A stretch of DNA of 34,750 nucleotides, taken from a virus (Duplodnaviria; Heunggongvirae; Uroviricota; Caudoviricetes). Location: IMG/VR virus record IMGVR_UViG_2875703104_000001. The stretch is one strand, 5' to 3'. Shown in pieces: positions 1,129 to 26,228 of the stretch. Positions within the stretch are counted from its first letter, which is position 1; every line of letters begins with the position of its first letter. Position numbers and translations under genes: made by a program. Under the pieces are notes generated by a model, which searched no databases, was not told the DNA's origin, and was given only the letters and a program-made list of their open reading frames with translations.

Positions 1129-1138
1129 ATTTTTGTGA

Positions 1139-2602: not shown

Positions 2603-3081
2603 TATCCCGCCCCCGTCATATCCGTGAATTTAGTCGCCATACTGCCAGCCTTACCGATGAGCGATTCTGCCTGTTTACCGATATCGCCATAAAGCGCGGC
2701 CAGTGATTCATCAACGCGGGTGAGCGACAGCGTAAAATCAATTTTTCGGGGTGTGCCGTCTGCAAAGAAAATACTCCCTGTTTCACTCACCCTGCTGATG
2801 ACATACATGCCGTAAATCATGCCGGTGCCATCCAGCAACGGCCACGCCCGACCTTCCTCTGCCATCAGTCTGAGCGTGGTCATCGTCAGCTTTCCGCCGG
2901 TCAGTTCGGGATAAAGCACACCGGCAAGCGTGATGTTTTCCTCGCCAACACCGAGAAACTGAAAGGCATCCCGTTTACCGATACGGGAATTTGACGGCCA
3001 GCGATAATCTGATTCACGCTGCATGGTCTGGTGTGGCAGCGTCTGGCGCATAAAAACAAACATACCTAACGCGAGCATCAT
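2602..3081 (-). CDS. U: Tail protein gpU (159 aa)
   Basis: Length and position match P2 gpU; stop/start overlap with D is typical translational coupling. Confidence 0.88.
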   Translation of the reverse strand: MMLALGMFVFMRQTLPHQTMQRESDYRWPSNSRIGKRDAFQFLGVGEENITLAGVLYPELTGGKLTMTTLRLMAEEGRAWPLLDGTGMIYGMYVISRVSETGSIFFADGTPRKIDFTLSLTRVDESLAALYGDIGKQAESLIGKAGSMATKFTDMTGAG

Positions 3082-3095
3082 TTTTCGTCACCTCC

Positions 3096-5543: not shown

Positions 5544-5963
5544 TCGTGTTTCCGCTTCGCCGGAGCGCCTTTTCGCGCCATGTGATGAGTTCGGTCAGGC
5601 TCATGGGATACAGTTCTGATGGCGGCCAGTGAAATATCACTGCCACATCCGCCATCAGGTCATCGACCGACAGATTTTTCGGGAACGTTACTGCACCGAG
5701 TTCGGCGACAAAAAACCGACCACCTTACCGGCCAGCGCCACAAGGTCAGGCAGTTCCAGCGCGGCGACTTCCTGCTCGGTCAGCATCGGTGCCGTTATGC
5801 GCGGCAGCACCTTAATCAGTGCATCGACTTCTGAGTTTGCGACCGCAGCCAGACTGACACCGCGCAGCGTCCCCGCACTGGGTTTCATCAGCGTGACCTG
5901 TTCGATAACCTGCTCACCACGCTTGACCGGATTGTCCAGGGTAATGACATTTTCTTTGTTCAT
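5536..5963 (-). CDS. E': gpE+E' fusion made by programmed -1 ribosomal frameshift (predicted 142 aa)
   Basis: Slippery heptamer T TTT TTG read on the minus strand at 5715..5709 (zero-frame codons GGT TTT TTG = G F L). The -1 frame is open from 5709 down to TAA at 5536-5538 (...WREKALRRSGNTNE*), overlapping the T start. The 142-aa size equals P2 E+E' as recalled. Confidence 0.8.
5688..5963 (-). CDS. E: Tail assembly chaperone gpE (91 aa, zero-frame product)
   Basis: 91-aa ORF ending ...VVGFLSPNSVQ, immediately upstream of T; contains the slippery site near its 3' end. Confidence 0.88.
   Translation of the reverse strand: MNKENVITLDNPVKRGEQVIEQVTLMKPSAGTLRGVSLAAVANSEVDALIKVLPRITAPMLTEQEVAALELPDLVALAGKVVGFLSPNSVQ
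5709..5715 (-). promoter_or_regulatory. -1 programmed frameshift slippery site TTTTTTG
   Basis: Directly read from sequence (plus strand CAAAAAA at 5709-5715); positioned in frame as X XXY YYZ relative to the E reading frame. Confidence 0.8.
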
Positions 5964-6019
5964 GGTTTTCTCACTTCTGAATCAGGGTTAACCGGTCAGC
6001 CAGGCTGACCGGATGAAAA

Positions 6020-6538
6020 TCACAGGCCGATATTTCGGCGGTGTTGCTCCAGCCGGTCGACGCCGTTCACCTTCTCAATCATGTTGATGGTGTCGATTTC
6101 GACCAGCTCCTTACCGTCCATCGTCAGCCGGAAATAGGTGCAGACCACGGAGATTTTCGACTCGGTGTCTTCTCCCTGTTTACCCTCGCCGGTGTCGATT
6201 TCTTTCTGACGTCCACGCATGACCACTTCGACGGCCACCGTTTCGCCGGTATCGTCGCGCTGGTAAGAGCCTGCAAAACGAATCGGCACGGCATCCACAC
6301 CGGTTGCGGCGTAAAGCTCCCAGATAACCGAATCCGGGAAGCCCCCGAGCGACCACTCCATTGACAGCGCATCGTCATCAAGGCCGAGGTCTACCGGTGC
6401 GCTGCCGTTCATCCCCGCACCGCGATAGTTTTCGAGCTTACGGGTCAGTTTTGGCAGCGTGACGGACTTTGCAACGCCCTGATAGCTGTAGCCGTTCAGA
6501 AAGACGTTCATTAACTTGAGTTTGCGCGGCATTGCCAT
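6020..6538 (-). CDS. FII: Major tail tube protein gpFII (172 aa)
   Basis: Length and position match P2 FII; follows FI. Confidence 0.88.
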   Translation of the reverse strand: MAMPRKLKLMNVFLNGYSYQGVAKSVTLPKLTRKLENYRGAGMNGSAPVDLGLDDDALSMEWSLGGFPDSVIWELYAATGVDAVPIRFAGSYQRDDTGETVAVEVVMRGRQKEIDTGEGKQGEDTESKISVVCTYFRLTMDGKELVEIDTINMIEKVNGVDRLEQHRRNIGL

Positions 6539-6550
6539 CGGTCATGCTCC

Positions 6551-7741
6551 TTAATTGCTGTTAACCGAGGTGACCAGATTTGCCAGGTATTTATCAGTAA
6601 TACGCTGGCGCAGGGTCAGGTTTTCAAGAGGAGGCACCGGGGTATAGTCGTAGTCGATATACAGTTTTCCGGCCTTGAGGGTTTCCGCATCGTTGGATTC
6701 TTCACTGAACCAGCAGGTCGCATCCACGATATAGCCGTTTGTTTTCAGCTCACGGAATTTGGCATTGATGCCGTCAACGATGTCGCGAATCAGCGTTGCG
6801 GTGATGGGCTTGTCCACCGCCCACATGTGCGCCTCAGCCATCGTGTCGGCCAGCACCTGCGCGGTGCGGGTGTAGTTTTCAAAGAGGAACAGCGGGTCAT
6901 CAGAGCAGGTACGGTTACCCCAGAACCGGAAACCGTCACGGCGAATCAGCGTTGTGACGCCTGACTCGTTAAGCAGGTCAGCATCGGTGCCGGACTCCTG
7001 CAAATCCCAGAATACAGATGCGCTGATGCCGGTAACACCGTTCACCCCGACATTGGACAGCGTTTTATGCCAGCCCTGCTCCTGGTCGATTTTAGCGCGC
7101 AGACCCAGCGCACGGGCGGTGGCATACGCGGTGGCGGTGGTACTGGTGACCGTATCCCATGCGAGGAAATCCGGCCAGATGACCATCAGCTCACGCTGGC
7201 TGAAATTCTGGCGGTAGGCTTTCACCTCGGAAATGGTCTTACAGCCCCATGCGCTGATATATCCGAAAGCGCGCAGCTTCTGACAGACTGATGCCAGTGC
7301 AACAGCCACCTCTTTGGTATCCAGCCCCGGCACACCAAGAATACGCGGTTTAACACCGGTTACCGACTCTGCCGCCAGCAGGGCTTTCAGTCCGGTATAC
7401 TGACCATTTTCGTCGGTGGTGCCGATGATATTGGAAACGGTCTGCGCGAGCTTCGTTTCTTCGTCATCGCCGGTGCCGTCTTCCACGCGCACGACAACGG
7501 TGACCGGTTTTGACTGGTCAGCGATGGCCTGCAACGATGCCGCCAGCGTGCCTTTTTTACCGGCCTTTGCAATTGCACTCTGCACATTGGTAATCAGCAC
7601 CGGTTTATTGAGGGGGAAGGTTTCCGCATCCGCATCGCTGGCCGTGCAGACCATGCCGACAATGGCAGTGGATACGGTGGAAATGACGCGGGTGCCGTCG
7701 TTAATCTCCAGCACCTGCACGCCGTGATGATAGTCACTCAT
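6551..7741 (-). CDS. FI: Contractile tail sheath protein gpFI (396 aa)
   Basis: Length and position match P2 FI; first gene of the FI-FII-E-T-U-D operon. Confidence 0.9.
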   Translation of the reverse strand: MSDYHHGVQVLEINDGTRVISTVSTAIVGMVCTASDADAETFPLNKPVLITNVQSAIAKAGKKGTLAASLQAIADQSKPVTVVVRVEDGTGDDEETKLAQTVSNIIGTTDENGQYTGLKALLAAESVTGVKPRILGVPGLDTKEVAVALASVCQKLRAFGYISAWGCKTISEVKAYRQNFSQRELMVIWPDFLAWDTVTSTTATAYATARALGLRAKIDQEQGWHKTLSNVGVNGVTGISASVFWDLQESGTDADLLNESGVTTLIRRDGFRFWGNRTCSDDPLFLFENYTRTAQVLADTMAEAHMWAVDKPITATLIRDIVDGINAKFRELKTNGYIVDATCWFSEESNDAETLKAGKLYIDYDYTPVPPLENLTLRQRITDKYLANLVTSVNSN

Positions 7742-8222
7742 CCGTTTAACTCCGTGGTTAATGGGTGAGTGGTATTTTCAGTTGTACCCGAGATGTCAGA
7801 CTATTTGTCCCGGTTGGCTAATCGACAGCACAACCACCGGTAAAGAAAAGGCGGGCAATTCGCTCGCCTGTCCTGATTTGTACTCACTTATTTCCCGACT
7901 GACAATTTACATAGCCAAAACGCTATCAAATCTGACAGTCTGCTTTGAGCGAGAAGCAGGCCTTACACTGTAATCAGCATAGAATAGGATGCAGAATCGC
8001 TAAACAAATAGATGTCTGTCAGAGTAGTGGCTTTTAGTGGAAATCTATAGTTGCTATAGCTCAGATAATTAAGTGCCGTCTCTGTCCGCAACTCTAGTCA
8101 GAGTTTATTGCACAGGGGAAATAAATAAGTGCATGTGAATCATTGTCACGAAACAGTAAATATTCGTCATGGGTCATCATATCACTATTTATATGTGTCA
8201 GAGTTGATACCCACCACTGAAA

Positions 8223-9269
8223 TCACTTTCCAAACTTATTAAATTGTTCAGCAATGAAATCAATATACTCATTACCTTGGCCGTTATGCCTGAATTTTTG
8301 CTGCCCTTCGAAATCTAAATTAGGTGAAAAATGAATTATTTGGTTATCTTCATACAGTTTTAAAGGAGAATAAAATGACAATGATTTATCATTCAATAAT
8401 TGACGCACTCCTGTTATAGCACTACCAATCAAAATATCACATAATTGAACTGCCGGGCTTAGTTTTGAATCAACTTGGTGAACATGCTCAAGCTTTAATG
8501 GGAATTTAATACTGGCGATTTCAGACATCTTAAACTCGGCTGGCGTCTGACATTTGATAAGCATCGAAAGATATTCATTGTATTGTAAAAGATTTTTAGA
8601 ACGATCATGCTCAATGCTATACGGTCCCTCTGACATTAATTCAGTGCGTGATATTAGTGCTTGAAGAATAACAAATGCTGCATCAGTAGAAATTTTTGGA
8701 TTAGTTATTGCCGTAATACAATCTGGATGCTCTAAAGCTAGTGGCCCCAGCACTTCCGGTAATAGACGCCAATTCACGGCCCTAACGTTCGCAATAAGGT
8801 TATTTACTGCTGTGTGCGTTTTCTCATGCATCGCATTTTGAAAAGATATTAGGATATTATCAAAATCTCTACCAAAGTAGCTTTGGCAGACATAGTAAGC
8901 CATTGATGCCATAGAAACGTTTCCACCATTTTCGTATAGATTTATCCCATGGTCATAGTAAAAAGGCTCTACCGCATACTCAATAAACATTTGAATTAGA
9001 ATCAAACGTTTATCGGCAACACAAGTAACACATGGAAAATTGGCAAGTAGTTCCTGTTGCAAAGTAAAAATTGGTTTTTGATAACTATCTCGCTTTTTAA
9101 GAGAGCTAAATTTCAATTCAGGGGCTTTGTGTTTAGGAAAATGTTGTCTGATAAGATGAAGAGCATCGTCATGACTAATCTTTACAGCGCTGGCCCCTTG
9201 CCAAGGTTGTGACTTTTGAAGAAGATCTCGCCCAGTGTAACCAGACTCATCAATTGAAAATATACTCAT
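8223..9269 (-). CDS. Cargo protein, DUF3800-like (348 aa), function unknown; candidate defence or moron gene
   Basis: N-terminus MSIFSIDESGYTG resembles the DUF3800 signature (hydrophobic-x-IDESG) and a C-terminal VQLCDILIGSAI resembles the DUF3800 QxADxxA-type motif. Gene is markedly AT-rich and sits at the P2 Z/fun position between FI and G. Confidence 0.6.
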   Translation of the reverse strand: MSIFSIDESGYTGRDLLQKSQPWQGASAVKISHDDALHLIRQHFPKHKAPELKFSSLKKRDSYQKPIFTLQQELLANFPCVTCVADKRLILIQMFIEYAVEPFYYDHGINLYENGGNVSMASMAYYVCQSYFGRDFDNILISFQNAMHEKTHTAVNNLIANVRAVNWRLLPEVLGPLALEHPDCITAITNPKISTDAAFVILQALISRTELMSEGPYSIEHDRSKNLLQYNEYLSMLIKCQTPAEFKMSEIASIKFPLKLEHVHQVDSKLSPAVQLCDILIGSAITGVRQLLNDKSLSFYSPLKLYEDNQIIHFSPNLDFEGQQKFRHNGQGNEYIDFIAEQFNKFGK

Positions 9270-9367
9270 TTATTCTGTGTCCATAGCTGTTGTTTCACCC
9301 AAAATACCTTTTTGGATAGTATTGCGCTATAGCCTTTAACCCTATTAATTGAGATCCATCGATGCAA

Positions 9368-9397
9368 GCAACGTCCGCTCATGGCACAGAGCGGACG
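9368..9397 (+). repeat. 30-bp hairpin-forming element, copy A (GCAACGTCCGCTCATGGCACAGAGCGGACG)
   Basis: Internal perfect 9-bp inverted repeat CGTCCGCTC/GAGCGGACG; about 87% identical to copy B at 11114..11143 in the same orientation. Confidence 0.7.
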
Positions 9398-9414
9398 ATA
9401 TCACTGAGCTGAAG

Positions 9415-9438
9415 GTCCGCTGAGAGCGAGGAGCGGAC
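9415..9438 (+). repeat. Second, shorter hairpin with the same GTCCGCT/AGCGGAC arms
   Basis: GTCCGCT-gagagcgagg-AGCGGAC, read directly, 18 bp downstream of copy A. Confidence 0.6.
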
Positions 9439-9548
9439 GTAGGGAATTGGTCCTTTCCCCCAACGATAACGTGTGTTAATCAGCCGAGAGTGGGTTATGA
9501 AACGCGGTGAATAGTTATGTTCCCAGTATCGCCATATTCCAGCCACTT

Positions 9549-10934
9549 TCAACGCATGCTTTTTGCGGTCTTATCTTGCTCCCAATGTGTGACACCTTCG
9601 ACCCCACGCGTCGAGTCAGATGTAAGCATCAATGGCTGTCTAAGGAAGAGCCCCATCAAATCCGGGACACGGGCAAAGTCTTGAACAGTCTCAGCCCACT
9701 CATAGTTGTCCTCTAATGGGTAATAATTAACGGCATGCAGGAAAGCACCCAACACGGTTGTTTTAGAGGCATCGTAGGCCGAGATATGCTCCATGTTTTT
9801 ATCCCTACGTAGTTCTTCAATATCTATGCCTTCGCAAGTCTCATACCAAATATGCACCACGCCAGCACGATCAGGGGGAATCTGCATGACTCCATCATTG
9901 AGCAAGCTCTTGAAATGCTTGGATCTGAGGCCAAGAGAAATCTCATGATCGCAGCACCACTGAGCTCCAACGCACTTTGCAACATCCTCTACAAAAATGT
10001 TGAGAATATCGTTATTGGTGCCAGGACGAATAACTCTCTGAGCGATAGTCGAGATACTTCGTTTCTCATTGCTATCTAGATCCCCAAATACCAGCAATTC
10101 ATGCTGTGGGCTATTGGCTCTGACTGAAAATTTTCTGTAGTGACGTCTGAGACCTAATTTGTCGATGGCTCGTATTCCCACACTGATTGAACCTTCATTA
10201 GCTTTTCCCGTCCCCCCTTTAATGGCTAGATTCACCGCTTTAATAACGTCTGCCGGAGTCACACTGGCGACCTGCTCATGGAAAATTATATCGACAATGT
10301 TCCATGGTGCGACTTTGAGCATATGTTGGCTCAATTGATGCCAGATGTTGGCCCAGGCTTGCTCTTCTGTCTTTGAGTACTTGGTTTGCTTATCCGACCT
10401 TTTGCACTCGACGTAGAACTCCAGATCACCTAACTTGACGAGCATATCCGGTGATTTTTTGGTCTTTCCATCGGGCCAAACAATGCTGCTTTCTGGGATG
10501 AAGGCAACCTCATAGCCGTTCTTTAGGTAGAACGATGCCGTCAGCAGCTCAAAAATTTGAGTTTCTGGTTTATTGTTATTTGCTAGCATTTTGTCCAGAA
10601 CATCATCGACGTATGGGACTTTGCGAAGCTGGTCTGCAACAGCTCCGATGGCCATAGCATAGGGGTAGATACGTCTGCTGCTGTAAGTAGCATCACTATA
10701 TGGAAAATCATGAGACAGATACGACGCCAGAATGTACCAGTCGATGTCATCTTCTGCTGGTATGAAGAGCTGGGGCTCTATCGGCAGATTGATGTTAAAC
10801 TTAGCCTCCTTCTCTCTTATGCGCTTGAAATATGCAGCTTTGCGAGCAGCCCAGGCCTCAGTTCCAAGCCTATCCACAAGCAACTGATAAAAAGCTTTTG
10901 TTCTTAAACGCTCAACACTACTGACACTATCCAT
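9549..10934 (-). CDS. Cargo protein of unknown function (461 aa) with a possible PD-(D/E)xK nuclease-like motif
   Basis: AT-rich ORF with no recognisable P2 counterpart. The segment SPDMLVKLGDLEFYVECK has PD...E-x-K spacing compatible with a restriction-endonuclease-like core; this is weak, motif-only evidence. Confidence 0.55.
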   Translation of the reverse strand: MDSVSSVERLRTKAFYQLLVDRLGTEAWAARKAAYFKRIREKEAKFNINLPIEPQLFIPAEDDIDWYILASYLSHDFPYSDATYSSRRIYPYAMAIGAVADQLRKVPYVDDVLDKMLANNNKPETQIFELLTASFYLKNGYEVAFIPESSIVWPDGKTKKSPDMLVKLGDLEFYVECKRSDKQTKYSKTEEQAWANIWHQLSQHMLKVAPWNIVDIIFHEQVASVTPADVIKAVNLAIKGGTGKANEGSISVGIRAIDKLGLRRHYRKFSVRANSPQHELLVFGDLDSNEKRSISTIAQRVIRPGTNNDILNIFVEDVAKCVGAQWCCDHEISLGLRSKHFKSLLNDGVMQIPPDRAGVVHIWYETCEGIDIEELRRDKNMEHISAYDASKTTVLGAFLHAVNYYPLEDNYEWAETVQDFARVPDLMGLFLRQPLMLTSDSTRGVEGVTHWEQDKTAKSMR

Positions 10935-11113
10935 TGCGGTCTCTCTTGGTTGTTGTATAGAGTCTTTAGCGATATATGTGATTTCAACTTATTGGAGGTA
11001 TTATCCTTCAGAAATCAAAGTTTGCTACCACAAAGAAATAGAAACTCTTTATTGCATCCTGTGTAAGTATCTATCCAAGCGGACCATTAGTTTTTTTAGA
11101 TATCTGACGTCCC

Positions 11114-11143
11114 GCAACGTCCGCTTCTGGCACATAGCGGACT
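11114..11143 (+). repeat. 30-bp hairpin-forming element, copy B (GCAACGTCCGCTTCTGGCACATAGCGGACT)
   Basis: 26/30 identical to copy A; the two copies bracket the 461-aa gene. Confidence 0.7.
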
Positions 11144-11206
11144 GTCAGATTAGGCTTTACTCTGTGCCATAGATATGTAAGCTCACACCAGAGATCATAC
11201 AACTTA

Positions 11207-11731
11207 TTACGGCATTTCCGGCCATTCGGGATTTGCAGGATCCACACGACTGACCAGAACGCTGTAGCGTTCCCATGCTTCCAGTCGGCCGCGTTCCTCA
11301 TCTGTTGCCATATTCAGCCTGACAGCGCGTTCCAGTGGCTGAATGATAGTTTCAGCTTCGGAAAGCAAAGCTGCCTTCTGTAATTCCGCCAGTTGCTCCT
11401 GTTCATCTGCCGTATAAATCCGCTTAATCACAGCACCATCCTTAAACATCCATTTACCTGAGTCATCAGCACGTCGGTTGGAGGTAATATCAGGAACCTC
11501 GACAACGCTGAAACCTTCAGGGTTAAGCGTTGAAGCATCTCTGGTGATGGCGACAATAATATTATTCTCGTCGTAAACAATTTTTATTGTGTCTGGCTGA
11601 AAATTACTTACTTCCTCATACCAGTTTTTTCCGTCTTCGGACCATAACCAGATAACATCAAAATTCTTTGTTAGCTGATATTGTTCTTTTGTTTTTGGAT
11701 TACCTGACTTAATGTTTTCTAAATGCTGCAT
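11207..11731 (-). CDS. G: Tail fibre assembly protein gpG (174 aa)
   Basis: C-terminal region ...[39 protein letters not shown] is the conserved Tfa/gpG-type tail fibre assembly motif; located immediately downstream of H. Confidence 0.85.
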
Positions 11732-11734
11732 AAT

Positions 11735-14544
11735 TTACACCTGCGCAACGTTATACCATGTGCCATTGATGTATTTTTGTATTGGTCTGAATACTGCTGG
11801 GTCATCACCATCGACTTCACCGACAATACCAAGCCCCGTGATTACATGGCCTGATTTTTCATACATCACGCCTTTTTGCATGGTCTGAACAACACGTGTG
11901 CCAAGTCTGACATCTCTCACATAGCGGGAATCAAAGTTACCGTAATCCGAGGGATTAACACTCCCCGTAATATTTATGGTTTTATTACTTTGAATACTTC
12001 CCGAGACAAAGCGCATAACATGGACGCTATTAGCATAAACATCCAGATTACCATCACCATTTTGTTTAAAGCCCGTGTCATTATCACCCAAAACAATCGA
12101 ATTACCGCCAAGAGCACTGGATGTTCCTATACCCAGAGCACCATTCAATTGACCACCAGATAACGGCAGGGCACCGACATCTCCCGCTGTAGGTTTTCGC
12201 GTTGTGGTATAAAACTCAGACCAGTCAGCCTCGAATCCGTAACCGTCACGAGCAGAACGATAAAAAATACCGCCGTTCTTATAATTAACGCGGAACTGGG
12301 CGGCGGGACAACTTCCTTCACCGATATTAAAATGAAGAATTAACGTTGATGCACCACCAATAGTTGCGTTATAGGCTCCGCTACTCCAGTTCCATCCAAC
12401 GGCTTTATCATTCGCAACGGTGTCTCCTGTTTTTCCTGAAGCAAATGCACCAATATTTTTCGGCGTCAGGTTAATATCTGATGTTCCATCAAACGAAACG
12501 TTATTAATTTTATTCCTGAAGCAAATGCACCAATATTTTTCGGCGTCAGGTTAATATCTGATGTTCCATCAAACGAAACGTTATTAATTTTACGGGCTGT
12601 TTTCAGCTTTGTTGCTGTCGCCGCATTGCCGGACAGTTCACCAGAAAGGCCAGCACTGAATGTCTGTTTCGCGCCCCATGTATGGGCTTCGTCAATGATT
12701 GGTACTCGTCTTGTTGTGATCGTGCGGCTTCCCGGATTTCCTGAAATACGCACCATAAAAAAGCGGTAGTTGGCTTTACTTACAGTGCTGCGCCATACAT
12801 GCATTGAGCGCCCCGAACCAGAATCATCACTCGGACCGACTGAGATGTTTATCAGGTTGCCATCAATGACGCCCCAGTCCATACCGTCGGGAATATTGGT
12901 CATGTTATCCAGCCGAACGGTTATCAGACTGCCCGGCACAAAATTGTATGTCTGCCAGTCCAGGCTGGTGAGTTTTGCCACTGCGCCACCGATACCCAAC
13001 TCTAACGGCAAAGAGTTTGAGTTATAAATCTGTCGCCACTCCCCCCACGCGTTAAATGAGCCACCAAGAAACACTCGCTCATATAAACGGTCTTTTGTAG
13101 CTGCGCTGGTTCCTGTGGTCGTGTAACGTTGCAAAACATAGACACCATCCTTGCGCCTGATGACTTCCAGAAAACCAGACTGCCCCTGGATTGGGGTGTG
13201 GGTCGCTTTGCCTGTCACACTGTAAATACCCGGAGACATCAAATCATCCAGGTCATCCTCATAGAAGGTACTACTGGTCTGATAACCAATTTGGATCCAG
13301 TCTTCCCACTGTGGATTTTCTGCATCCCATTTGGCTGTCAGGCCGCGAATATACATAGTCCCGTTACGGGTTGTATAACGCTGCGTGCGTCCATATAGCC
13401 CACCTTCGAAAATTTCCAGAATGCCCTGCGCGTCTCCTCCCTGCTCAGGGTAATGTCGTTCAAAAGAAGCTATTGCTGAACTGCTGTTTCTCCATAGACC
13501 TAAATGTTCTGCGCCACCGAGAGAGTTAAGGTCAATGGTCGTACTTAGAGCACGCGTTACAGCCTGAACATGGCGCCATGCTCCCCATGGTCCATCATTA
13601 CCATTCCATGTTCCAATGAGTTTGCGGGTATACAAATTTCCGTCACGTGTGGTATAGCGTTGCGTGCCTGCAAAATTGCCGCCAGCAAAAACCTCAAGCA
13701 CACCGACAGCATTATCTTCCGGGAAGTTTTTCTCCAGTGTTGCGTTGGTGGATGTTGCTTTAGACCAGATACCTGAATAAGCCTTAACAGGACCAAACGT
13801 ATTCAGATCAGCATTAAGCGGCATTTCGCCATTGTTTTTCATAAACGTCAGGCTGGTAACGCCAACATTGTCCAGAAAAGCGCCCTTATCTGGAATATCG
13901 CCACCGTTCTGGTCTTTCTGCAGACGTTTCTCAGCATTGTCATAGGCTGCTTTTACTGCCTTTGGCGTTGCCGCCAGCTTTTCACTGGTGCTGTTTGTTG
14001 CACTGCTTAACTGAGTAAAACCTTTTTCTGTCAGCGTGGCGTCAGGATGGCGGCGGGACTGCTCATGCTCTGCGATTTTGTCATCGACGTAATCCTGCGT
14101 CGCCATCACTGTGCTGGCATCAATAGTCAGCTCAACAGACGCCACGTTACTGATAATAATAACCATGCGGCAGGTCTGCGCACGTCCGGAGCCTTCAGCC
14201 AGTTCTGGTTTATAGCTTTCTGCCATGTTGGATACCGCAATCAGTGTTCCGGCATCGTCATACAGACCAAGCTCACGCATCCAGAAGCCGCCCACTTCGG
14301 GCGGTACAACCAGTTCAGCCACGATATAGTTTTTATTCTTATTATCCACGCTGACTTTATTCAGAGCGTGACGCCAGACCTCATGCACCAGTTTCGTCTG
14401 ACCGGCATCCGGCACCGGCAATTTGCCATTACCGTCACCCACGGCCATTGCAGACAGGTTTACTTTTTTCCCGCCGGGGACAGTGGCGGCAGCCAGCTTT
14501 GCGGCTCCGGCAGTAGTGATAACGGTTTTAAATTTCGTGCTCAT
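11735..14544 (-). pseudogene. H: Tail fibre gene H, frame-disrupted by an 80-bp tandem duplication (N-terminal ORF 12466..14544; C-terminal open frame 11735..12465)
   Basis: N-terminus MSTKFKTVITTAGAAKLAAATVPGG... matches P2 gpH. The ORF stops 47 nt into the first repeat copy with an aberrant ...GIKLITFRLMEHQILT tail. The other frame is open from 12465 to 11735 and encodes the expected continuation (...KNIGAFASGKTGDTVANDKAVGWNWSSGAYNA...). Deleting one 80-bp copy gives a single 909-codon ORF. Confidence 0.85.
12433..12592. repeat. Perfect 80-bp tandem direct duplication (12433..12512 = 12513..12592) inside gene H
   Basis: Read directly: both copies are TTCCTGAAGCAAATGCACCAATATTTTTCGGCGTCAGGTTAATATCTGATGTTCCATCAAACGAAACGTTATTAATTTTA. 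80 is not a multiple of 3. Confidence 0.95.
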
Positions 14545-14554
14545 TGTTTCTCAC

Positions 14555-15085
14555 TTATCCGGGATAAACAGTAATAACATCACCATCACAGACCACACCG
14601 CCTGTATACAGATAGCCGGGAATGTCCTGGATAATGTTCAGACCGATAAGGTGGCGACTTGCGGGTTTGGCATCGGCAATCAGCCGTTCCATTTCCTGAT
14701 ACATTGCCTCTGTGATACCGCTTTCCAGTACACCAATATCAAGCCGGAAGGTGCCGGGCGGGTCACTGTTTTCCCACCACTCCGTCACGTTGATGAGATA
14801 GCCGAGCGGCTCCACCACACGCCGGATTGCACCTATCGTGCCCTTATGACAGTGGATGAAATACGCATCGCGGATAACGGCGCGTTTTGTCGCTTCCGGC
14901 CACTTTTCATCCCACCTGTCGACCGAAAACGCCCACGCCAGCCACGGCAGCAGATTTGCCGGGCAGGTGTCCGGGTTCCACAGCTCACGAATACTGACCG
15001 GCGTTTTTTCAATTTCCGCACAGGCTTTTGCGGCGGCGACCTCAAGCGGTGATGAGCCGGTCGGCAGCAGTCGCGAATCACTCAT
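14555..15085 (-). CDS. I: Baseplate protein gpI (176 aa)
   Basis: Length and synteny match P2 gpI. Confidence 0.88.
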   Translation of the reverse strand: MSDSRLLPTGSSPLEVAAAKACAEIEKTPVSIRELWNPDTCPANLLPWLAWAFSVDRWDEKWPEATKRAVIRDAYFIHCHKGTIGAIRRVVEPLGYLINVTEWWENSDPPGTFRLDIGVLESGITEAMYQEMERLIADAKPASRHLIGLNIIQDIPGYLYTGGVVCDGDVITVYPG

Positions 15086-15986
15086 CCGAGCCTCCGGTCA
15101 CGACGCGGTATTCGGTACAGAAAGACGCCTGCGTACTGTTGAGCACGATGTCGGCCAGTGGTGCAGCCAGTTCGACACGCTGCACACCTTCCACATGCAA
15201 AGCGGCATAAATGGCAGACAGACGGATGTCGCGCCCCAGCCGGTGCTGTGCCGTGATATACGCTTCCAGCTTTTTCACAGCGGCAGCGCGGATGGGTTCG
15301 CTTTCGGGACCAGGGTAAAGGTAAAGCGTGGCGTTTATCTGGTATTCAACGATGGCGGCAGACTGCACGGTCACGCGGTCGGCCACCGGCCTGACGTCCT
15401 CGCCATTAAGGGCGTTACGCACCACAGCCAGCAGGTCTTCGGATGCGACGCCGTTATTTTCACGTGACAGCACAGAGATGGTGACACAGGCAGGAGACGG
15501 GCTGGTGACAGAGATATCCGCGACACGCCCGTCGGCACTGCGACCATGATACTGATAGGCACCCACCGACCCGGCGACGCTTAAACCTTCAAACGCCTGC
15601 TGAATACGCAGCCGGTAATCGGTGTCAGACTCCATCACTGCCGGTGTCGGCGGGATAGTCGAATCATCTGCCGGGGTGATAATCAGGCGCGTGGTGTTGT
15701 AATTGGCACCAATCACATCAAGGTCATTACCGGCAGCACAGGCCAGCATCACCGCCCGTGCGGCCTCATTCACACGCTGACGCCAGATAAGCTCACGATA
15801 AGCATTTTCCTCCAGCAGTTTGACGAGAGGCTCCGATTCCAGCGTCAGGGTACGGGCGACCGCCTCCTGCTGGTCTTCCGGGTAAAGGGAAATCAGTGTC
15901 GCCTTGCGTTCGGCGAGAATGGTTTCAAAGTCCAGCTCCTCGACCACATCCGGTGCGGGTAGCTGGTTCAGGTCGATAATCGGCAT
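15078..15986 (-). CDS. J: Baseplate protein gpJ (302 aa)
   Basis: Length and synteny match P2 gpJ. Confidence 0.88.
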   Translation of the reverse strand: MPIIDLNQLPAPDVVEELDFETILAERKATLISLYPEDQQEAVARTLTLESEPLVKLLEENAYRELIWRQRVNEAARAVMLACAAGNDLDVIGANYNTTRLIITPADDSTIPPTPAVMESDTDYRLRIQQAFEGLSVAGSVGAYQYHGRSADGRVADISVTSPSPACVTISVLSRENNGVASEDLLAVVRNALNGEDVRPVADRVTVQSAAIVEYQINATLYLYPGPESEPIRAAAVKKLEAYITAQHRLGRDIRLSAIYAALHVEGVQRVELAAPLADIVLNSTQASFCTEYRVVTGGSDE

Positions 15987-15990
15987 GGTT

Positions 15991-16338
15991 TCAACTCACA
16001 GGGATGGTTAACGAAAGTGGCTGGCCGGTGTCGTTGTGCTGGCCGGTTAACGTGACCGTCATTCGCCCGTCAAAACTGCGCGCCGTGGTGACGGATGACA
16101 GGGTGACGCGGGGTTCCCATTTCAGCACTGCCATGTAACAGGCGACTTTAATCTGCAACTCAAGCGCCGGGGTCTGCGGCTGGTCAATCATTGATGCCAG
16201 CAACGAGCCGTAATCACGACGCATCACCCGTGAGTCGACCGGTGTGCGCAGGATATCGCCGATACTCTGGCTGATATGCTCAAGGTCAGTGACCGTCAGG
16301 CCATTACTGCGATTCATTCCGAGATAACGCGCTGTCAT
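15991..16338 (-). CDS. W: Baseplate protein gpW (115 aa)
   Basis: Length and synteny match P2 gpW. Confidence 0.88.
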   Translation of the reverse strand: MTARYLGMNRSNGLTVTDLEHISQSIGDILRTPVDSRVMRRDYGSLLASMIDQPQTPALELQIKVACYMAVLKWEPRVTLSSVTTARSFDGRMTVTLTGQHNDTGQPLSLTIPVS

Positions 16339-16976
16339 TTTGTCCCCTGTGTCCAGTTGTCTCCTGACTTAACACCACCGTGACCGTGGTCATCCACCTG
16401 AACGCCGTTAGAAGTGAATTTCCCGTCGGTATGCTCGATGTTGCCGTGCATCTTCCCGCCCTTCTGCACTTCCAGCGTGCCGGTAGTCAGCTTGTTGGTG
16501 CAGACCACCTCCGGTGTGTCCAGAGTGACGCGGGTTGACGCTTTCACCATGGCCACCGGCACCGTGGCGGTAACAGAATCAGAAGCCGTCACGCTGGCCG
16601 TTTTAATTCCGCTTACCGTGAGTGCACTGGTTTCGGGTTCATATTCAATCACCGCCCCGTCAGGGAAACGGATATGCAGGGCATCCGCCGACGCAGACGG
16701 CGCGGGGTTATCGCCGGAATAAATCCCCGGCAGAACGAACGCCGTGTCGAGTTCACCGCCCACGGCCAGAATCAGCACCTGCTCCCCCACGGAAGGTGCC
16801 CACCATGTGCGCGAACGCCCGGCGCGATGGGTCAGCCACTGAAGCCAGTCAGTGCACATGCCACCAGTCTGCACTCGGCAGCGACCGGCGTTAAGGTCGG
16901 TTTCGACGACAAGGCCGGTGCGGATCATGTTGCGCAGTGCGCGCGCGATTTCCTGAATATTTGCGAGAGTGTTCAT
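16335..16976 (-). CDS. V: Baseplate spike/assembly protein gpV (213 aa)
   Basis: Length and synteny match P2 gpV; first gene of the V-W-J-I-H-G operon. Confidence 0.88.
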   Translation of the reverse strand: MNTLANIQEIARALRNMIRTGLVVETDLNAGRCRVQTGGMCTDWLQWLTHRAGRSRTWWAPSVGEQVLILAVGGELDTAFVLPGIYSGDNPAPSASADALHIRFPDGAVIEYEPETSALTVSGIKTASVTASDSVTATVPVAMVKASTRVTLDTPEVVCTNKLTTGTLEVQKGGKMHGNIEHTDGKFTSNGVQVDDHGHGGVKSGDNWTQGTK

Positions 16977-17042
16977 AACGGGAAGGATGCCGCCGGGTCA
17001 TACCGGCGGCAATGTGACGATGAGGTGTCGGGAATGGCACAA

Positions 17043-17495
17043 CTAACGGTCGAGGTGAGCCAGGATAATCTCTTCAATCATCTGTACATCCTCACCGGTG
17101 AAGCCGAGCAGAGGGCGCGCCGGATAATCAATTTTCTTACCGTCTTTCCGGTTTTCTTCCGACAGACCGAACTGATGCACACTGGCGATTTTCGGTGACT
17201 TCCCGCCGTAAAACTCCATTGATGCCTGCTCCGGGCTGGCGCGGATATGCAAAAAACGACTGGTGATAAGTTTCGCAAACATTTTTCGCTTAACACGACC
17301 GGTCTTTTTTCTGGCGCTCTGCTGCTGGCGTGGCACGTAGGGTGTGCCGTCCGGGGCTTTCTGTGCCATCACCCGACGCTGCTGACTCTGCCGCAGGCGC
17401 TTCGCCAGTTCGGCACTCAGTCGCCGACGCCCTGACGGTGACAGCGATTCAGTCAGTCCGGTCAGCCGGTCTTCAAAACGCTTAAACTCATTCAT
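17043..17495 (-). CDS. S: Tail completion protein gpS (150 aa)
   Basis: Length and synteny match P2 gpS. Confidence 0.85.
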   Translation of the reverse strand: MNEFKRFEDRLTGLTESLSPSGRRRLSAELAKRLRQSQQRRVMAQKAPDGTPYVPRQQQSARKKTGRVKRKMFAKLITSRFLHIRASPEQASMEFYGGKSPKIASVHQFGLSEENRKDGKKIDYPARPLLGFTGEDVQMIEEIILAHLDR

Positions 17496-17955
17496 CCCAC
17501 TTGCTCACCAGTTCGCCATTGATATAAAGCTCCATCGGGCGGTTGACCGGCTCCGGCGGCGGGGGTTCCGGGATATTCTTCACATGCAGTGCGCCGTCCA
17601 CCTCACTGACCAGCGTGCGCTCGGTCAGCATCAGGCTGATACTGATATCAAAGCTGCTGTCATTGTTGATGTCTGCATAAAACGTGAAGCCCTTTTTCTG
17701 GCCTTCGTCGGTGGTCATGATGTCGGGCTGATTTTCCCGCAGCCACGCCAGCACCGGCACGATGAGCAGGTCAAAATCACCGGTAAAGTCGGTCACAATG
17801 ACATTGAGCGTGTAACGTTTTTCGAATGACAGCGACGTCGCCAGCGTGGAGGCAATACTCCCGTTATCCACGAATATCCGCAGCATCTCGGGACTGGTTT
17901 TCAGCACCGTGACGGCATCAGTCAGCGCCCTGCGCAGGCTGTCGGGTTTGAGCAT
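17488..17955 (-). CDS. R: Tail completion protein gpR (155 aa, start at second in-frame Met)
   Basis: Length from MLKPDSLRR... equals P2 gpR as recalled; the ORF-track start at 17964 adds 3 codons. Confidence 0.8.
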   Translation of the reverse strand: MLKPDSLRRALTDAVTVLKTSPEMLRIFVDNGSIASTLATSLSFEKRYTLNVIVTDFTGDFDLLIVPVLAWLRENQPDIMTTDEGQKKGFTFYADINNDSSFDISISLMLTERTLVSEVDGALHVKNIPEPPPPEPVNRPMELYINGELVSKWDE

Positions 17956-18208
17956 CGTTTTCATCCTGACAGTGTTTAATCATTTTTACCTGGCTGGCAC
18001 AGCGTGCCAGCGCGTTCTCAAGCTGCCGGATATCGGCACTTAAATCGCCGTTCGTCTGCGGGTCACTGCCCGGCATCGGGCAAAGGCTCACTTTCGGGCA
18101 GGCGTTGTGGACAATCACTGGCGTCTGCGCAGGCCGGGCGCTGGTGCAACCGGCGCACAGCATCAGGCAGGTCAGCGCCGTACCAGCGGCGGAAATCTTC
18201 GTTTTCAT
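17918..18208 (-). CDS. lysC: LysC, o-spanin (Rz1-like outer-membrane lipoprotein), 96 aa, nested in lysB and overlapping R
   Basis: MKTKISAAGTALTCLMLCAGCTS contains a lipobox (LCAGC). It starts inside the lysB reading frame in a different frame, as is typical for embedded spanins. Confidence 0.75.
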   Translation of the reverse strand: MKTKISAAGTALTCLMLCAGCTSARPAQTPVIVHNACPKVSLCPMPGSDPQTNGDLSADIRQLENALARCASQVKMIKHCQDENDAQTRQPAQGAD

Positions 18209-18488
18209 TGAGTAATCTCGTGATGGTTTTCTCGCGCTGAGCTTCACGCTTCGCGGCGTTTTCCAGTTCCTGACGCAGTGCCACCTGCGCCAGCTCGTTT
18301 TTGTCTGCCCTGGTGAGCGCAACATGAAGCTGATTTTTCAGCATGGTGATGGTCGCCTGCTGCTCGCTGGCTACGTTGTTTGCCCTGTCCAGTGAGGTGC
18401 GCAGGCTGGCGTTTTTATGCTTCGCCAGAAACAGACCCGCCACCGCCAGCGATAACAACACGACCAGCACAATCATCAGCTTTGACAT
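18063..18488 (-). CDS. lysB: LysB, i-spanin (Rz-like), 141 aa
   Basis: N-terminal transmembrane segment MSKLMIVLVVLLSLAVAGLF followed by a coiled-coil-like region; length and position match P2 LysB. Confidence 0.82.
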   Translation of the reverse strand: MSKLMIVLVVLLSLAVAGLFLAKHKNASLRTSLDRANNVASEQQATITMLKNQLHVALTRADKNELAQVALRQELENAAKREAQREKTITRLLNENEDFRRWYGADLPDAVRRLHQRPACADASDCPQRLPESEPLPDAGQ

Positions 18489-18901
18489 GGTTCCCGCCCC
18501 TCAAAACGCTGACGGCAGGCCGTACGTATCAGCCGGAAGAACAGCGACGCCACGAGATAAATCAGCGCGGTAAAAATCCACCCGGCAGCGACCAGCGAGA
18601 TAAACGTCGCCACCATCACCACCAGAGCCGCCGCCCGTCTGCGCCACGGCACCGGCTGCAAAAACAGCGACGTGACAATCTTCACGGCCAGCGATTCCGG
18701 TGGCAGCTCCCGCCCGTAGCGTTCCAGTACATACTCCGTGGCATACACACCGACACCACCGGCAACCACACAGATAACCGTCGCCAGAATCGCCCAGGTG
18801 GCGACAAAACTGACGGCCACGCTCTGCGGGTAAATCAGGGACAGTGCCAGCATCAGCGCCAGCGACACGTTCAGCATCAGTGAAAGGGATAATTTCTTCA
18901 T
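18476..18901 (-). CDS. lysA: LysA, membrane protein modulating lysis timing (141 aa)
   Basis: Multi-transmembrane hydrophobic protein located between K and lysB as in P2. Confidence 0.8.
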   Translation of the reverse strand: MKKLSLSLMLNVSLALMLALSLIYPQSVAVSFVATWAILATVICVVAGGVGVYATEYVLERYGRELPPESLAVKIVTSLFLQPVPWRRRAAALVVMVATFISLVAAGWIFTALIYLVASLFFRLIRTACRQRFEGREPCQS

Positions 18902-18915
18902 GGTGTTTACTCCGT

Positions 18916-19413
18916 TTAAGCCGGTACGCCGCCAGCGGTACGCCAGACGGTGACCAGTTTTTCCAGTGAATGCTCACGCTGACCGTAACCGGCACCCGGC
19001 AGGGACGCCCAGATATTGCGACAGCGTGAAATGGCGCGCTCAATGCGTCCCGCCCGGATGTCATCCAGTGCACCGCGTTCGCGGATCAACTGAATGGCAA
19101 GTCTGTCCTGTGACAACGGACTGAAATCCGGCAGGGCAAGCTGTTTGCGGTAATGCGGCCAGAACAGGTAAAGCTGCTGATAGCGACCGGAGGCCGTGGA
19201 TTTTTCACCGCGACGGTTAAACACCTTCGCCGGTCGGCCATGCGCGAACGGGTGGTCACTGTAGTCGGTGAAAATTTCCGGCTTTCCGTCCAGTCCGGTG
19301 ACTATCACGTCATAGCCCCGGTTTTTCGTCAGCGGATGATTCGCCGTCCCTTCGGACACGGCCAGCATGTCGAGAAAGGCGGCGATATTCTGATGCGTGT
19401 TAATTACCGGCAT
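18916..19413 (-). CDS. K: Endolysin gpK (165 aa)
   Basis: Length and position match P2 gpK; directly follows holin Y. Confidence 0.88.
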   Translation of the reverse strand: MPVINTHQNIAAFLDMLAVSEGTANHPLTKNRGYDVIVTGLDGKPEIFTDYSDHPFAHGRPAKVFNRRGEKSTASGRYQQLYLFWPHYRKQLALPDFSPLSQDRLAIQLIRERGALDDIRAGRIERAISRCRNIWASLPGAGYGQREHSLEKLVTVWRTAGGVPA

Positions 19414-19694
19414 TACTGTTTCCCCCTGCCCTTAAAGCGGCGCTGAATGGCAATCTCAATCACCTGATAACCGGCGATACCCAGCATGGAGCCGATGCCG
19501 CACACCGCAGGCAGTGACAGGTCAGGAAACTGCACCAGAACAACACCGGCAACCATCGAGACAAAACCACCGAGCAACATGCGCCCGATAAACAGACGCG
19601 GGGTGATGGGTTCACCACCGGCAAGCACCTTGCCGACAACAATCAACACCCCAATCATGAAAAGCGACAGGACGCTTTTTTCTTCTGCTGTCAT
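19413..19694 (-). CDS. Y: Holin gpY (93 aa)
   Basis: Small protein with hydrophobic transmembrane stretches and a charged C-terminus (RRFKGRGKQ); length matches P2 gpY. Confidence 0.85.
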   Translation of the reverse strand: MTAEEKSVLSLFMIGVLIVVGKVLAGGEPITPRLFIGRMLLGGFVSMVAGVVLVQFPDLSLPAVCGIGSMLGIAGYQVIEIAIQRRFKGRGKQ

Positions 19695-19697
19695 GCG

Positions 19698-19901
19698 TTA
19701 CTCCCACAGATTGACAGTTTCAGCCACGGGCGCGGTCTGAACGTCGGGCAGTTCGACGGCGGTGCCGTGCGGCAGCACCGCACCCAGTTCAGCCAGTCCC
19801 GGATTTGCGGCGAGCACGGTCTCAACCACGCCCTCAGTGCGCCCGTAATACCGGACACAAATGGCGTCGAGCGTGTCGCCCTGTAGCGCAAAGGTCTTCA
19901 T
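19698..19901 (-). CDS. X: Tail protein gpX (67 aa)
   Basis: MKTFALQGDTLDAICVRYYGRTEGVVETVLAANPGL... matches P2 gpX as recalled; the ORF-track upstream extension is rejected. Confidence 0.85.
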   Translation of the reverse strand: MKTFALQGDTLDAICVRYYGRTEGVVETVLAANPGLAELGAVLPHGTAVELPDVQTAPVAETVNLWE

Positions 19902-20410
19902 CAGATTTGACTCACGATGCAGCGCGGCTTGTCCTGGATGCGCGCCACTGCCCAGCGCATATCCCGCCACAGCTCATCAATGGTGCTGTCAATGCTGTCG
20001 GCCTTCTTGTCTCCTTTCGCACTGGCATCCACGCCGCGGTAACGCTCATAAAGCGACGCGGTCGCCATCGCACACACGGCGCGCTCGTAGTAAAAAACTT
20101 TGATACTTTCACCGTCGATATCGTCCGCCGGAACGTCCGCCAGACGCGTAAAACCGGCGGCAATTTTCTGTTCGCGGTACTCGTACAGCTCCGCATTTGT
20201 TTCCGCCATGCCTGACTTGATGGCCTCACGCAGACGGGCGGGGGCGACGGTCTGCTCAAGGCGCATACGTTCCCGGACGCGCTTCGGGTCGATATCGGGA
20301 AAAAAGAACGTGTTTTTAATCACCGGCTCGTCGCCTGCCGGTTGCGGGATGACCACCGTACCCTCACCGGACACGGGAGCCTCCTTTCGCGGAATAATCA
20401 GCGTCATCAT
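19901..20410 (-). CDS. L: Head completion/stabilisation protein gpL (169 aa)
   Basis: Length from the internal MMTLIIPRKEAP start equals P2 gpL; synteny M-L-X. Confidence 0.85.
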   Translation of the reverse strand: MMTLIIPRKEAPVSGEGTVVIPQPAGDEPVIKNTFFFPDIDPKRVRERMRLEQTVAPARLREAIKSGMAETNAELYEYREQKIAAGFTRLADVPADDIDGESIKVFYYERAVCAMATASLYERYRGVDASAKGDKKADSIDSTIDELWRDMRWAVARIQDKPRCIVSQI

Positions 20411-20509
20411 GACTACCTCTGAAAAGTCGGGCGGTGGACGCCGGTGCAGTGTCAGGTGATTCACCCTCACTGACCGGCGTGCCGCCCTGGCGCGGGGCGC
20501 ATTCGGTTG

Positions 20510-21253: not shown

Positions 21254-21256
21254 CAG

Positions 21257-22330: not shown

Positions 22331-22388
22331 AGTTTTTCCTGAAATTAAGGGTTAATCGTGAAGGTTTTCCCGGACTGACTGACGCCGG

Positions 22389-26223: not shown

Positions 26224-26228
26224 ACATC

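What the first reader, a model, noticed from the sequence alone, without database searches (positions are those of the whole stretch)
12433..12592. Tail fibre gene H is split by a perfect 80-bp tandem duplication
The two 80-bp copies are identical and adjacent. Because 80 is not divisible by 3, the H reading frame shifts in the first copy and terminates at 12466 with a 15-residue aberrant tail. The remaining tail fibre C-terminus is intact but in another frame, down to 11735. The prophage is therefore predicted to make no functional tail fibre unless the duplication is an assembly artefact or collapses at some frequency by homologous recombination, which would act as an on/off switch for infectivity.
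Basis: seen in the sequence. Interest (0 to 1): 0.7.

Follow-up and report, generated by a model that had tools for sequence, protein, structure and literature searches.

The report
Probable assembly artefact splitting tail-fibre gene
The perfect 80-base duplication that breaks the prophage tail-fibre gene is really in the deposited sequence, but its geometry and its identical twin in a second, unrelated prophage of the same assembly point to a contig-joining error, not to a biological switch.

Summary
Window 12433..12592 is a perfect 2 x 80 nt tandem repeat. It frameshifts P2-type gene H (692 aa, then a 15-residue aberrant tail). Removing one copy restores a 909-aa H ending at 11735.

The biological reading is not supported.
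- The window comes from E. coli ST1193 chromosome CP035330.1. Over 31 kb it differs from ST1193 strain SCU-204 only by one SNP (in fieF) and this duplication.
- Of 207 copies of this fibre segment in 5,426 complete E. coli genomes, none has the junction. It is also absent from the phage, genome and metagenome collections searched.
- The only other occurrence is a Mu-like prophage whose truncated fibre protein lies on a contig of identical length (5,110,451 bp), so it is taken to be the same chromosome.
- Once collapsed, the two fibre genes share a single exact block longer than 150 nt (219 nt). The duplicated unit sits at its centre.
- Each locus therefore reads as a 151-mer starting at the upstream copy-specific SNP, followed by a 150-mer ending at the downstream one. 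That is what abutting two read-length contig ends would give.

Most likely (about 0.8) this is an assembly or finishing artefact. A real duplication copied by gene conversion stays possible (about 0.1 to 0.15). Raw reads were not available.

The parts
12513..12592 (-). 80-nt unit, first copy in gene orientation. Read in the H frame it encodes (R)KINNVSFDGTSDINLTPKNIGAFASG, residues 652-677 of intact H.
12433..12512 (-). 80-nt unit, second copy in gene orientation. It is read out of frame and holds the premature stop at 12466-12468.
12466..14544 (-). 5' part of tail-fibre gene H as it stands in the record: 692 aa = 677 genuine residues plus 15 aberrant ones. The exact protein is WP_434087632.1, found on one contig only (CP035330.1).
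11735..12511 (-). 3' part of H, open in the original H frame (258 codons plus stop). It carries the receptor-binding end, with gp37_C-like matches. Gene callers call only the 137-aa TTG ORF 11735..12148.
11207..11731 (-). Gene G, tail-fibre assembly chaperone (Caudo_TAP), immediately downstream of H.
12364..12662 (.). Block identical between this P2-like locus and the Mu-like prophage taken to be in the same chromosome: 299 nt with the duplication, 219 nt collapsed. It is the only exact shared block longer than 150 nt, and the unit is centred in it, with margins of 69 and 70 nt.
12663..12663 (.). Upstream (gene orientation) SNP distinguishing the two copies. 12663..12513 = 151 nt.
12363..12363 (.). 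Downstream SNP distinguishing the two copies. 12512..12363 = 150 nt.

Best explanation
The duplication is most likely an error made when the chromosome CP035330.1 was assembled or finished. It is probably not a feature of the bacterium's DNA.

This E. coli ST1193 genome appears to hold two prophages, the P2-like one in the window and a Mu-like one next to emrD. Their tail-fibre genes share one exact 219-nt stretch, which is too long for a single ~150-nt read to span.

Inferred mechanism: at each locus the contig coming from either side could be extended into the shared stretch only as far as a read anchored on the last copy-specific SNP reaches. That is 151 nt from the upstream side and 150 nt from the downstream side. 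The two ends overlap by 80 nt. They were abutted, or gap-closed, without merging the overlap. This writes the central 80 nt twice, with no junction microhomology, and does so identically at both loci.

On this view the real prophage carries an intact 909-aa H gene, as in every other ST1193 genome examined.

Shown: the sequence facts, the uniqueness to this assembly, the twin locus and the 151/150 geometry. Inferred: that short reads of about 150 nt and an end-to-end join were involved.
For: (1) Apart from one SNP in fieF, window 1..31236 is identical to ST1193 strain SCU-204 except for the 80 nt. Many other ST1193 chromosomes are 100.0% identical over the first 25 kb in two pieces spanning 24,920 nt. 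H there is an intact 2,730-nt gene.

(2) The junction 80-mer has no match in 5,426 complete E. coli genomes or 50,697 phage records. A control 80-mer across the normal unit edge finds 207 places in 195 genomes at the same threshold. The junction 50-mer is also absent from genome contigs and metagenome contigs.

(3) The only other hit is IMGVR_UViG_2875703104_000002, a Mu-like prophage beside emrD. It shares nothing with the window except the fibre 3' part and the chaperone gene, yet it has the identical 2 x 80 nt and the same aberrant tail.

(4) Both truncated proteins (692 aa and 637 aa) each occur on exactly one contig among about 15 billion proteins. Both contigs are 5,110,451 bp long, which is the length of CP035330.1, so they are taken to be the same chromosome.

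(5) After collapsing, the maximal exact matches between the two loci are 219, 142, 101, 67... nt. The duplication lies in the only one longer than 150 nt and is centred in it, at positions -70..+148 relative to the unit. The pieces measure 151 and 150 nt.

(6) The 219-nt block is invariant in Mu-like relatives that lack the duplication, so no conversion tract is visible.

(7) Partial fibre proteins from many draft assemblies stop inside this same motif, and one Logan contig starts exactly at the unit's end. This region habitually breaks short-read contigs.

(8) Neither this record nor another of the same Brazilian accession series (BR43-DEC, CP035377) is in the RefSeq collection of complete-genome-level assemblies, although RefSeq protein accessions exist. 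This is weak and circumstantial.
Against: I could not see reads, the assembly method or the sequencing platform.

If the chromosome was assembled from long reads alone, an 80-nt insertion at two loci would be hard to explain as an artefact.

The piece lengths are 151 and 150, not equal, so a perfectly symmetric read- or k-mer-based rule would give 79 or 81 nt, not 80. An asymmetric convention has to be assumed.

The geometry argument was found after looking at the data.

No other stretch of this chromosome could be checked for similar joins.

Premature termination of this H gene does occur elsewhere: a TGA at codon 717 in GCA_044545475.1. So real inactivation of H in this prophage lineage is not implausible in itself.
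Confidence: 0.8

Rival explanations
1. The duplication is real and is plain decay. An 80-nt tandem duplication arose in one fibre gene of this isolate and was then copied into the homologous gene of the other prophage by short-tract gene conversion. Both prophages then lack a functional fibre.
For: The sequence is in a deposited chromosome and NCBI annotated both halves as proteins. The two loci share about 98% identity over roughly 800 nt around the site, enough for RecA-mediated conversion. An independent nonsense mutation of the same H gene exists in another assembly, so H inactivation can occur in this prophage lineage.
Against: It needs two rare events fixed in a lineage that otherwise differs from its clone-mates by one SNP in 31 kb. 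The first is a duplication without any microhomology. The second is a conversion confined to 70-nt arms, because the flanking SNPs at 12363 and 12663 were not co-converted. It does not explain why the unit is centred to within one base in the only block longer than 150 nt, nor why the pieces equal a standard read length. It was not seen in any of 207 other copies.
Confidence: 0.1
2. The duplication is real and works as a reversible frameshift switch. Precise loss of one 80-nt copy by recombination or replication slippage would restore H, so a subpopulation of induced phage is infectious. This would resemble capsule phase variation by cap3A duplications in pneumococcus.
For: A perfect tandem repeat would be expected to collapse precisely, and collapse restores the full 909-aa frame. 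Reversible in-ORF duplications are an established on/off mechanism in cap3A (Waite et al. 2001, as summarised in PMC11163986). Presence in two fibre genes could be read as selection.
Against: Everything listed against the decay reading applies here too. In addition, a switch used by this phage family should leave duplicated alleles in other lysogens, but 0 of 207 copies in complete genomes carry it, and none in IMG/VR, phage records or metagenomes. No specialised repeat, recombinase or inverted repeat is present.
Confidence: 0.04
3. A mixed case. The duplication is real at one of the two loci and was written into the other by consensus polishing with multiply-mapping short reads.
For: Reads lying wholly inside the 219-nt shared block cannot be assigned to one locus, so a polisher could in principle carry an indel from one copy to the other.
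Against: It still needs a real microhomology-free duplication that happens to be centred between the two SNPs at read-length distances. Anchored reads reaching from the SNPs would contradict the insertion at the unaffected locus.
Confidence: 0.04

Closest known systems
Uncollapsed overlaps at contig joins, gap closures or circularisation points in genome assemblies (false tandem duplications). This class is named from my own knowledge; a literature search for a specific reference found nothing directly relevant.
   Same: A perfect two-copy tandem repeat with no junction microhomology. It is unique to one assembly, sits in a sequence repeated elsewhere in the genome, recurs at the only other known copy of that repeat, and its length is fixed by the data: 151 + 150 - 221 = 80.
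   Different: The usual examples have the length of the assembler's k-mer and sit at contig or replicon ends. Here the length follows from read length minus repeat length, and the site is internal to a 5.1-Mb record. The pipeline used is unknown to me.
Bacteriophage P2 tail fibre gpH with its chaperone gpG (Peduovirus)
   Same: N-terminal Phage_tail_fib collar domain, Phage_fiber_2 repeat, gp37_C-like distal part, a Caudo_TAP chaperone gene directly downstream, and P2 gene order V-W-J-I-H-G. The segment around the unit is 98-99% identical to the fibre genes of P2-like phages.
   Different: In the record the gene is split by the 80-nt duplication. All compared phages and prophages have one copy.
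Phase variation by reversible tandem duplication inside an ORF (pneumococcal cap3A; Waite et al. 2001, cited in PMC11163986)
   Same: A perfect in-ORF duplication whose length is not a multiple of 3 and whose precise loss restores the gene.
   Different: In cap3A the off state depends on the duplication and the on state on its reversion. Here there is one allele, in one assembly, with no population evidence and a geometry that tracks read length.
Invertible tail-fibre segments (Mu G/Gin, P1 C/Cin, e14 P/Pin, p15B Min). Named from my own knowledge.
   Same: They act on the same class of fibre genes and would likewise switch the receptor-binding end.
   Different: They use a serine invertase and inverted crossover sites and yield alternative functional C-termini. 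No resolvase/invertase match was found in the four cargo proteins scanned, and no inverted repeat of at least 16 nt flanks the fibre 3' part. The repeat here is direct and destroys the frame.

Membership tests
P2-type tail fibre gene H (Peduovirus) | N-terminal tail-collar fibre domain and fibre repeat | tested here: met
   PF12571 at 1.5e-57 (residues 1-151) and PF03406 at 7.6e-21. The same families are listed for the 692-aa product.
P2-type tail fibre gene H (Peduovirus) | Position between baseplate gene I and chaperone gene G in the P2 late-gene order | tested here: met
   Gene order V, W, J, I, H, G (Caudo_TAP), then sheath and tube.
P2-type tail fibre gene H (Peduovirus) | One continuous ORF through the receptor-binding C-terminus | tested here: not met
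   The gene is split at 12512/12513 in the record. It is continuous (909 aa) only after one unit is removed.
Assembly join artefact (uncollapsed overlap) | Confined to one assembly; near-identical genomes have one copy | tested here: met
   0 junction matches against 207 control matches in complete E. coli genomes. ST1193 relatives are otherwise identical. Each truncated protein is on a single contig.
Assembly join artefact (uncollapsed overlap) | Lies in a sequence repeated within the genome and recurs at the other copies | tested here: met
   The same 2 x 80 nt is in the Mu-like prophage, whose truncated protein sits on a contig of the same 5,110,451-bp length. Only these two copies could be examined.
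Assembly join artefact (uncollapsed overlap) | Boundaries set by read or k-mer length measured from the edges of the repeat | tested here: met
   151 nt and 150 nt from the two copy-distinguishing SNPs, and the unit is centred in the only exact block longer than 150 nt. The actual read length is unknown.
Assembly join artefact (uncollapsed overlap) | Junction absent from the raw reads | not testable with these tools
   No access to reads. Among the hits returned by an 81-residue query that included the 15-residue aberrant tail, and among the cluster members listed, only the two CP035330.1 proteins carry that tail. This is very weak, because only cluster representatives are searched.
Reversible tandem-duplication phase variation (cap3A type) | Perfect in-ORF duplication whose loss restores the frame | tested here: met
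Reversible tandem-duplication phase variation (cap3A type) | Duplicated alleles recur among independent isolates or populations | tested here: not met
   No other occurrence in any collection searched.
Reversible tandem-duplication phase variation (cap3A type) | Observed switching (mixed one-copy and two-copy population, phenotype change) | not testable with these tools
   Needs reads, PCR or plaque assays.
Invertase-driven tail-fibre switching (Gin/Cin/Pin/Min) | Adjacent serine invertase gene and inverted crossover sites within the fibre gene | tested here: not met
   There are only weak short inverted repeats, both downstream of H within or beside gene G (11186..11579), and none flanks the fibre 3' part. 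The ORFs downstream of G show DUF3800 and a weak below-threshold AHJR-like hit, not resolvase.

The most novel reading that the evidence does not exclude
The duplication is real at both loci. A microhomology-free 80-nt duplication in a conserved fibre motif has been exchanged by gene conversion between a P2-like and a Mu-like prophage of one ST1193 cell. Its precise collapse would act as a shared, reversible frameshift switch that silences and re-arms the receptor-binding ends of two unrelated prophages.
Probability: 0.05. Interest if true: 0.6.

Novelty: not a real feature. Interest (0 to 1): 0.1.

Why it matters
If it is an artefact, the practical points are these.
- CP035330.1 (GCA/GCF_004116855.1) probably mis-states two prophage tail-fibre genes as broken. 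The proteins WP_434087632.1 and WP_250188905.1 and the two 137-aa 'phage tail proteins' would then be artefactual products.
- The prophage should be scored as carrying an intact H gene.
- The case gives a simple rule for spotting such errors: a perfect tandem duplication, centred in an exact intra-genomic repeat, of length (2 x read length) minus the repeat length.

If it were real, it would be an unusual reversible lesion shared by two prophages. Nothing found here favours that.

Tried and rejected
- Ordinary strain-specific mutation in one prophage: rejected as sufficient once the identical duplication turned up in the Mu-like prophage taken to be in the same chromosome.
- Independent recurrence in different hosts: I first took the IMG/VR hit for a second, independent genome. 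Both truncated proteins sit on a contig of the same length, 5,110,451 bp, so this is not independent support.
- Gene-conversion footprint: I looked for SNPs erased around the unit by comparing the Mu-like copy with its relatives in strains 1290 and S6. The 219-nt block is invariant in all of them, so there is no footprint either way.
- k-mer overlap artefact: k-1 = 80 for k = 81 would put duplications at the edges of the 219-nt block, not at its centre. SPAdes-type k up to 127 would give about 35 nt. Only a length of about 150-151 fits (reasoning).
- Whether the two delimiting SNPs are themselves artefacts: they are private to the Mu-like copy (37 other loci carry A/C; one search found the upstream allele only in that UViG). 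The search for the downstream allele was uninformative for that contig, because the pattern spans a storage-chunk boundary, and it found no other contig. Other private SNPs occur at about 1 per 100 nt there, so I treat them as natural.
- Searching for the aberrant peptide with an 81-residue query that included the 15-residue tail: only 13 short, otherwise frameshifted proteins were returned, none with that tail. Not informative, because cluster representatives hide such members.
- Strain, method and platform: the accession and neighbouring accessions gave only ST1193 / Brazil / about 2015 and the BR-DEC accession series. Plasmid and RefSeq look-ups failed.
- Literature search for a specific reference on join-induced duplications gave nothing directly relevant.

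Full report
**1. The observation**

Tandem Repeats Finder finds one array in the 34,750-nt window. It lies at 12433..12592, with period 80, 2.0 copies, 100% matches and no indels. The two 80-mers are identical. The array cannot be extended or rotated by a single base, so there is no microhomology at the junction or at the edges.

The window is a P2-like (Peduovirus) prophage in reverse orientation. It runs from the host gene fieF and ogr at the left to the integrase at the right. Gene H runs 14544->12466 on the minus strand. At the copy junction (12513|12512) the frame is lost, and 15 aberrant residues (IKLITFRLMEHQILT) precede a stop.

The remainder of H is open in the original frame from 12511 to 11735. 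Removing one copy gives a 909-aa protein with a Phage_tail_fib collar domain, a Phage_fiber_2 repeat and gp37_C-like distal matches. It is followed by the Caudo_TAP chaperone gene G at 11207..11731.

**2. Where the window comes from**

An exact look-up of the 692-aa truncated product finds one record: NCBI GCA_004116855.1, CP035330.1, a 5,110,451-bp E. coli chromosome. One paper cites this assembly as an ST1193 isolate from Brazil, circulating since at least 2015 (PMC11888992).

Many ST1193 chromosomes are 100.0% identical to the first 25 kb of the window, in two pieces that together span 24,920 nt, which is 80 fewer than the query. A base-by-base comparison with strain SCU-204 over window 1..31236 shows only two differences: one SNP at 726 in fieF, and the 80-nt duplication. 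In SCU-204, H is annotated as one 2,730-nt gene.

**3. How widespread the duplication is**

All close matches to 12200..12820 in 5,426 complete E. coli genomes and 50,697 phage records span 540-541 nt, not 621. An 80-mer centred on the junction has no match in either collection at E <= 1e-20. A control 80-mer across the normal unit edge, at the same threshold, finds 207 places in 195 genomes.

The junction 50-mer is absent from the species-representative genomes and from the JGI metagenomes. Four other contigs that encode the same 137-aa downstream ORF have no duplication. One is a draft NCBI assembly and three are Logan read assemblies. Three of them hold one copy of the unit, and the fourth starts at the unit's last base.

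**4. The one other occurrence**

The junction is found once in IMG/VR, in IMGVR_UViG_2875703104_000002. This is a Mu-like prophage, with Mu-type baseplate genes, com/mom and the host gene emrD beside it. It has no similarity to the window except the 3' part of the fibre gene and the chaperone gene, which match at 92% overall.

Its fibre gene (637 aa as called) carries the identical 2 x 80 nt and the same aberrant tail. Exact look-ups show that this 637-aa protein (WP_250188905.1) and the window's 692-aa protein (WP_434087632.1) each occur on one contig only among about 15 billion proteins. Both contigs are 5,110,451 bp long. The second occurrence is therefore taken to be in the same chromosome, not in an independent genome.

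The nearest relatives of this Mu-like prophage in complete genomes (strains 1290 and S6, 95.7% identity) have one copy and an intact fibre gene.

**5. Geometry**

After one copy is collapsed at each locus, the maximal exact matches between the two loci are 219, 142, 101, 67, 65... nt. The duplication lies in the only block longer than 150 nt. Counting from the first base of the unit in gene orientation, the block covers -70..+148 and the unit covers 0..79. The margins are therefore 70 and 69 nt.

In window coordinates the copy-distinguishing SNPs are at 12663 and 12363. The stretch 12663..12513 is 151 nt and the stretch 12512..12363 is 150 nt. Each locus therefore reads as a 151-mer beginning at the upstream SNP, followed by a 150-mer ending at the downstream SNP.

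This is what results if two contig ends are joined end to end without merging their 80-nt overlap, each end having been extended into an unspannable repeat by one read length from its last unique anchor. The same reasoning accounts for four observations:
- both loci carry the same duplication (four contig ends, two joins);
- there is no junction microhomology;
- the shorter shared blocks (142 nt and below) are unaffected;
- no other ST1193 genome has it, because none of the complete genomes searched holds a close relative of this Mu-like prophage.

My rough estimate is that the chance of a real duplication being centred to within one base, with piece lengths equal to a standard Illumina read length, is below 1%, even allowing for the post-hoc nature of the argument.

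The two delimiting alleles (G at -71, A at +149) are private to the Mu-like copy: 37 other loci carry A and C, and the upstream allele occurs in IMG/VR only in that UViG. The search for the downstream allele found no contig at all, because in that UViG the pattern spans a storage-chunk boundary. That prophage has other private SNPs at about 1 per 100 nt, so I take these two as natural. The 219-nt block is invariant in all relatives, so no gene-conversion footprint can be seen.

**6. Supporting circumstances**

Partial fibre proteins from many draft assemblies end inside the KINNVSFDG...GAFASG motif, and one Logan contig begins exactly at the unit's last base. This conserved fibre motif is thus a regular contig break point.

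Neither CP035330 nor CP035377 is in the collection of RefSeq assemblies at complete-genome level, although RefSeq protein accessions exist. CP035377 is strain BR43-DEC, from the same accession series and also from Brazil. This suggests chromosome-level pseudomolecules, not finished assemblies, but it is only circumstantial.

**7. Verdict**

The sequence feature is real in the record. The most likely explanation (about 0.8) is an assembly or finishing artefact, and the true prophage probably has an intact 909-aa H gene.

Three alternatives remain:
- A real duplication plus short-tract gene conversion (about 0.1).
- The same, acting as a reversible switch like pneumococcal cap3A (about 0.04).
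- A real duplication at one locus, copied to the other by polishing (about 0.04).

All three need a microhomology-free duplication that happens to sit at read-length distances from both SNPs. The first two also need a second rare event in a lineage that differs from its clone-mates by one SNP in 31 kb.

An invertase-type fibre switch is excluded: the repeat is direct, no invertase match was found in the cargo proteins scanned, and there are no flanking inverted repeats.

**8. Limits**

I had no access to reads, to the assembly method, or to the rest of the chromosome. The 151/150 asymmetry needs an asymmetric join rule. The geometry was noticed after the fact. Reads or one PCR would settle the matter (see next steps).

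Noticed in passing
L003 9863..13038 (IMGVR_UViG_2875703104_000002; taken to be the same chromosome as the window): A Mu-like prophage beside emrD carries a fibre gene whose 3' third and chaperone gene are homologous to P2 H/G of the window: about 98% identity near the unit and about 88% at the distal end. This is a clear case of fibre-module sharing between a Mu-like and a P2-like prophage, apparently in one cell.
   Followed up: yes
window 26577..28781 (-): Cargo between portal gene Q and replication gene A (the P2 old/tin hotspot, named from my own knowledge). A 547-aa HipA-like kinase plus HIRAN protein matches both PADLOC candidate components, PDC-M03A (residues 4-308, 4e-31) and PDC-M03B (residues 325-525, 1e-30), fused in one polypeptide. 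It is followed by an Rv2179c-like 3'-5' exonuclease.
   Followed up: partly
window 8223..10934 (-): Cargo between chaperone gene G and sheath gene FI (the P2 Z/fun hotspot, named from my own knowledge). It comprises a 461-aa protein with no family (only a weak AHJR-like nuclease hit, E 0.0066, below cut-off) and a 348-aa DUF3800 protein. Neither has a convincing PADLOC match.
   Followed up: partly
L084 511..3274 (GCA_044545475.1, JBIYQT010000192.1): A near-identical copy of the same H gene in another E. coli assembly has a GGA->TGA nonsense change at codon 717. This gives a 716-aa product plus the same 137-aa downstream ORF, an independent disruption of the gene.
   Followed up: partly
proteins P0025, P0036, P0038, P0040 (cluster members of the fibre proteins); L086 position 1: Partial fibre proteins from draft assemblies repeatedly end within or next to the KINNVSFDGTSDINLTPKNIGAFASG motif, and a Logan contig starts exactly at the unit's last base. 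The motif is a habitual contig break point in short-read assemblies.
   Followed up: partly
L003 3611..4098: A 186-nt tandem repeat, 2.6 copies at 91% identity, in the Mu-like prophage, upstream of the DNA circularization gene.
   Followed up: no
window 726: The only point difference from ST1193 strain SCU-204 in 31 kb is a T/C SNP inside the host gene fieF.
   Followed up: no
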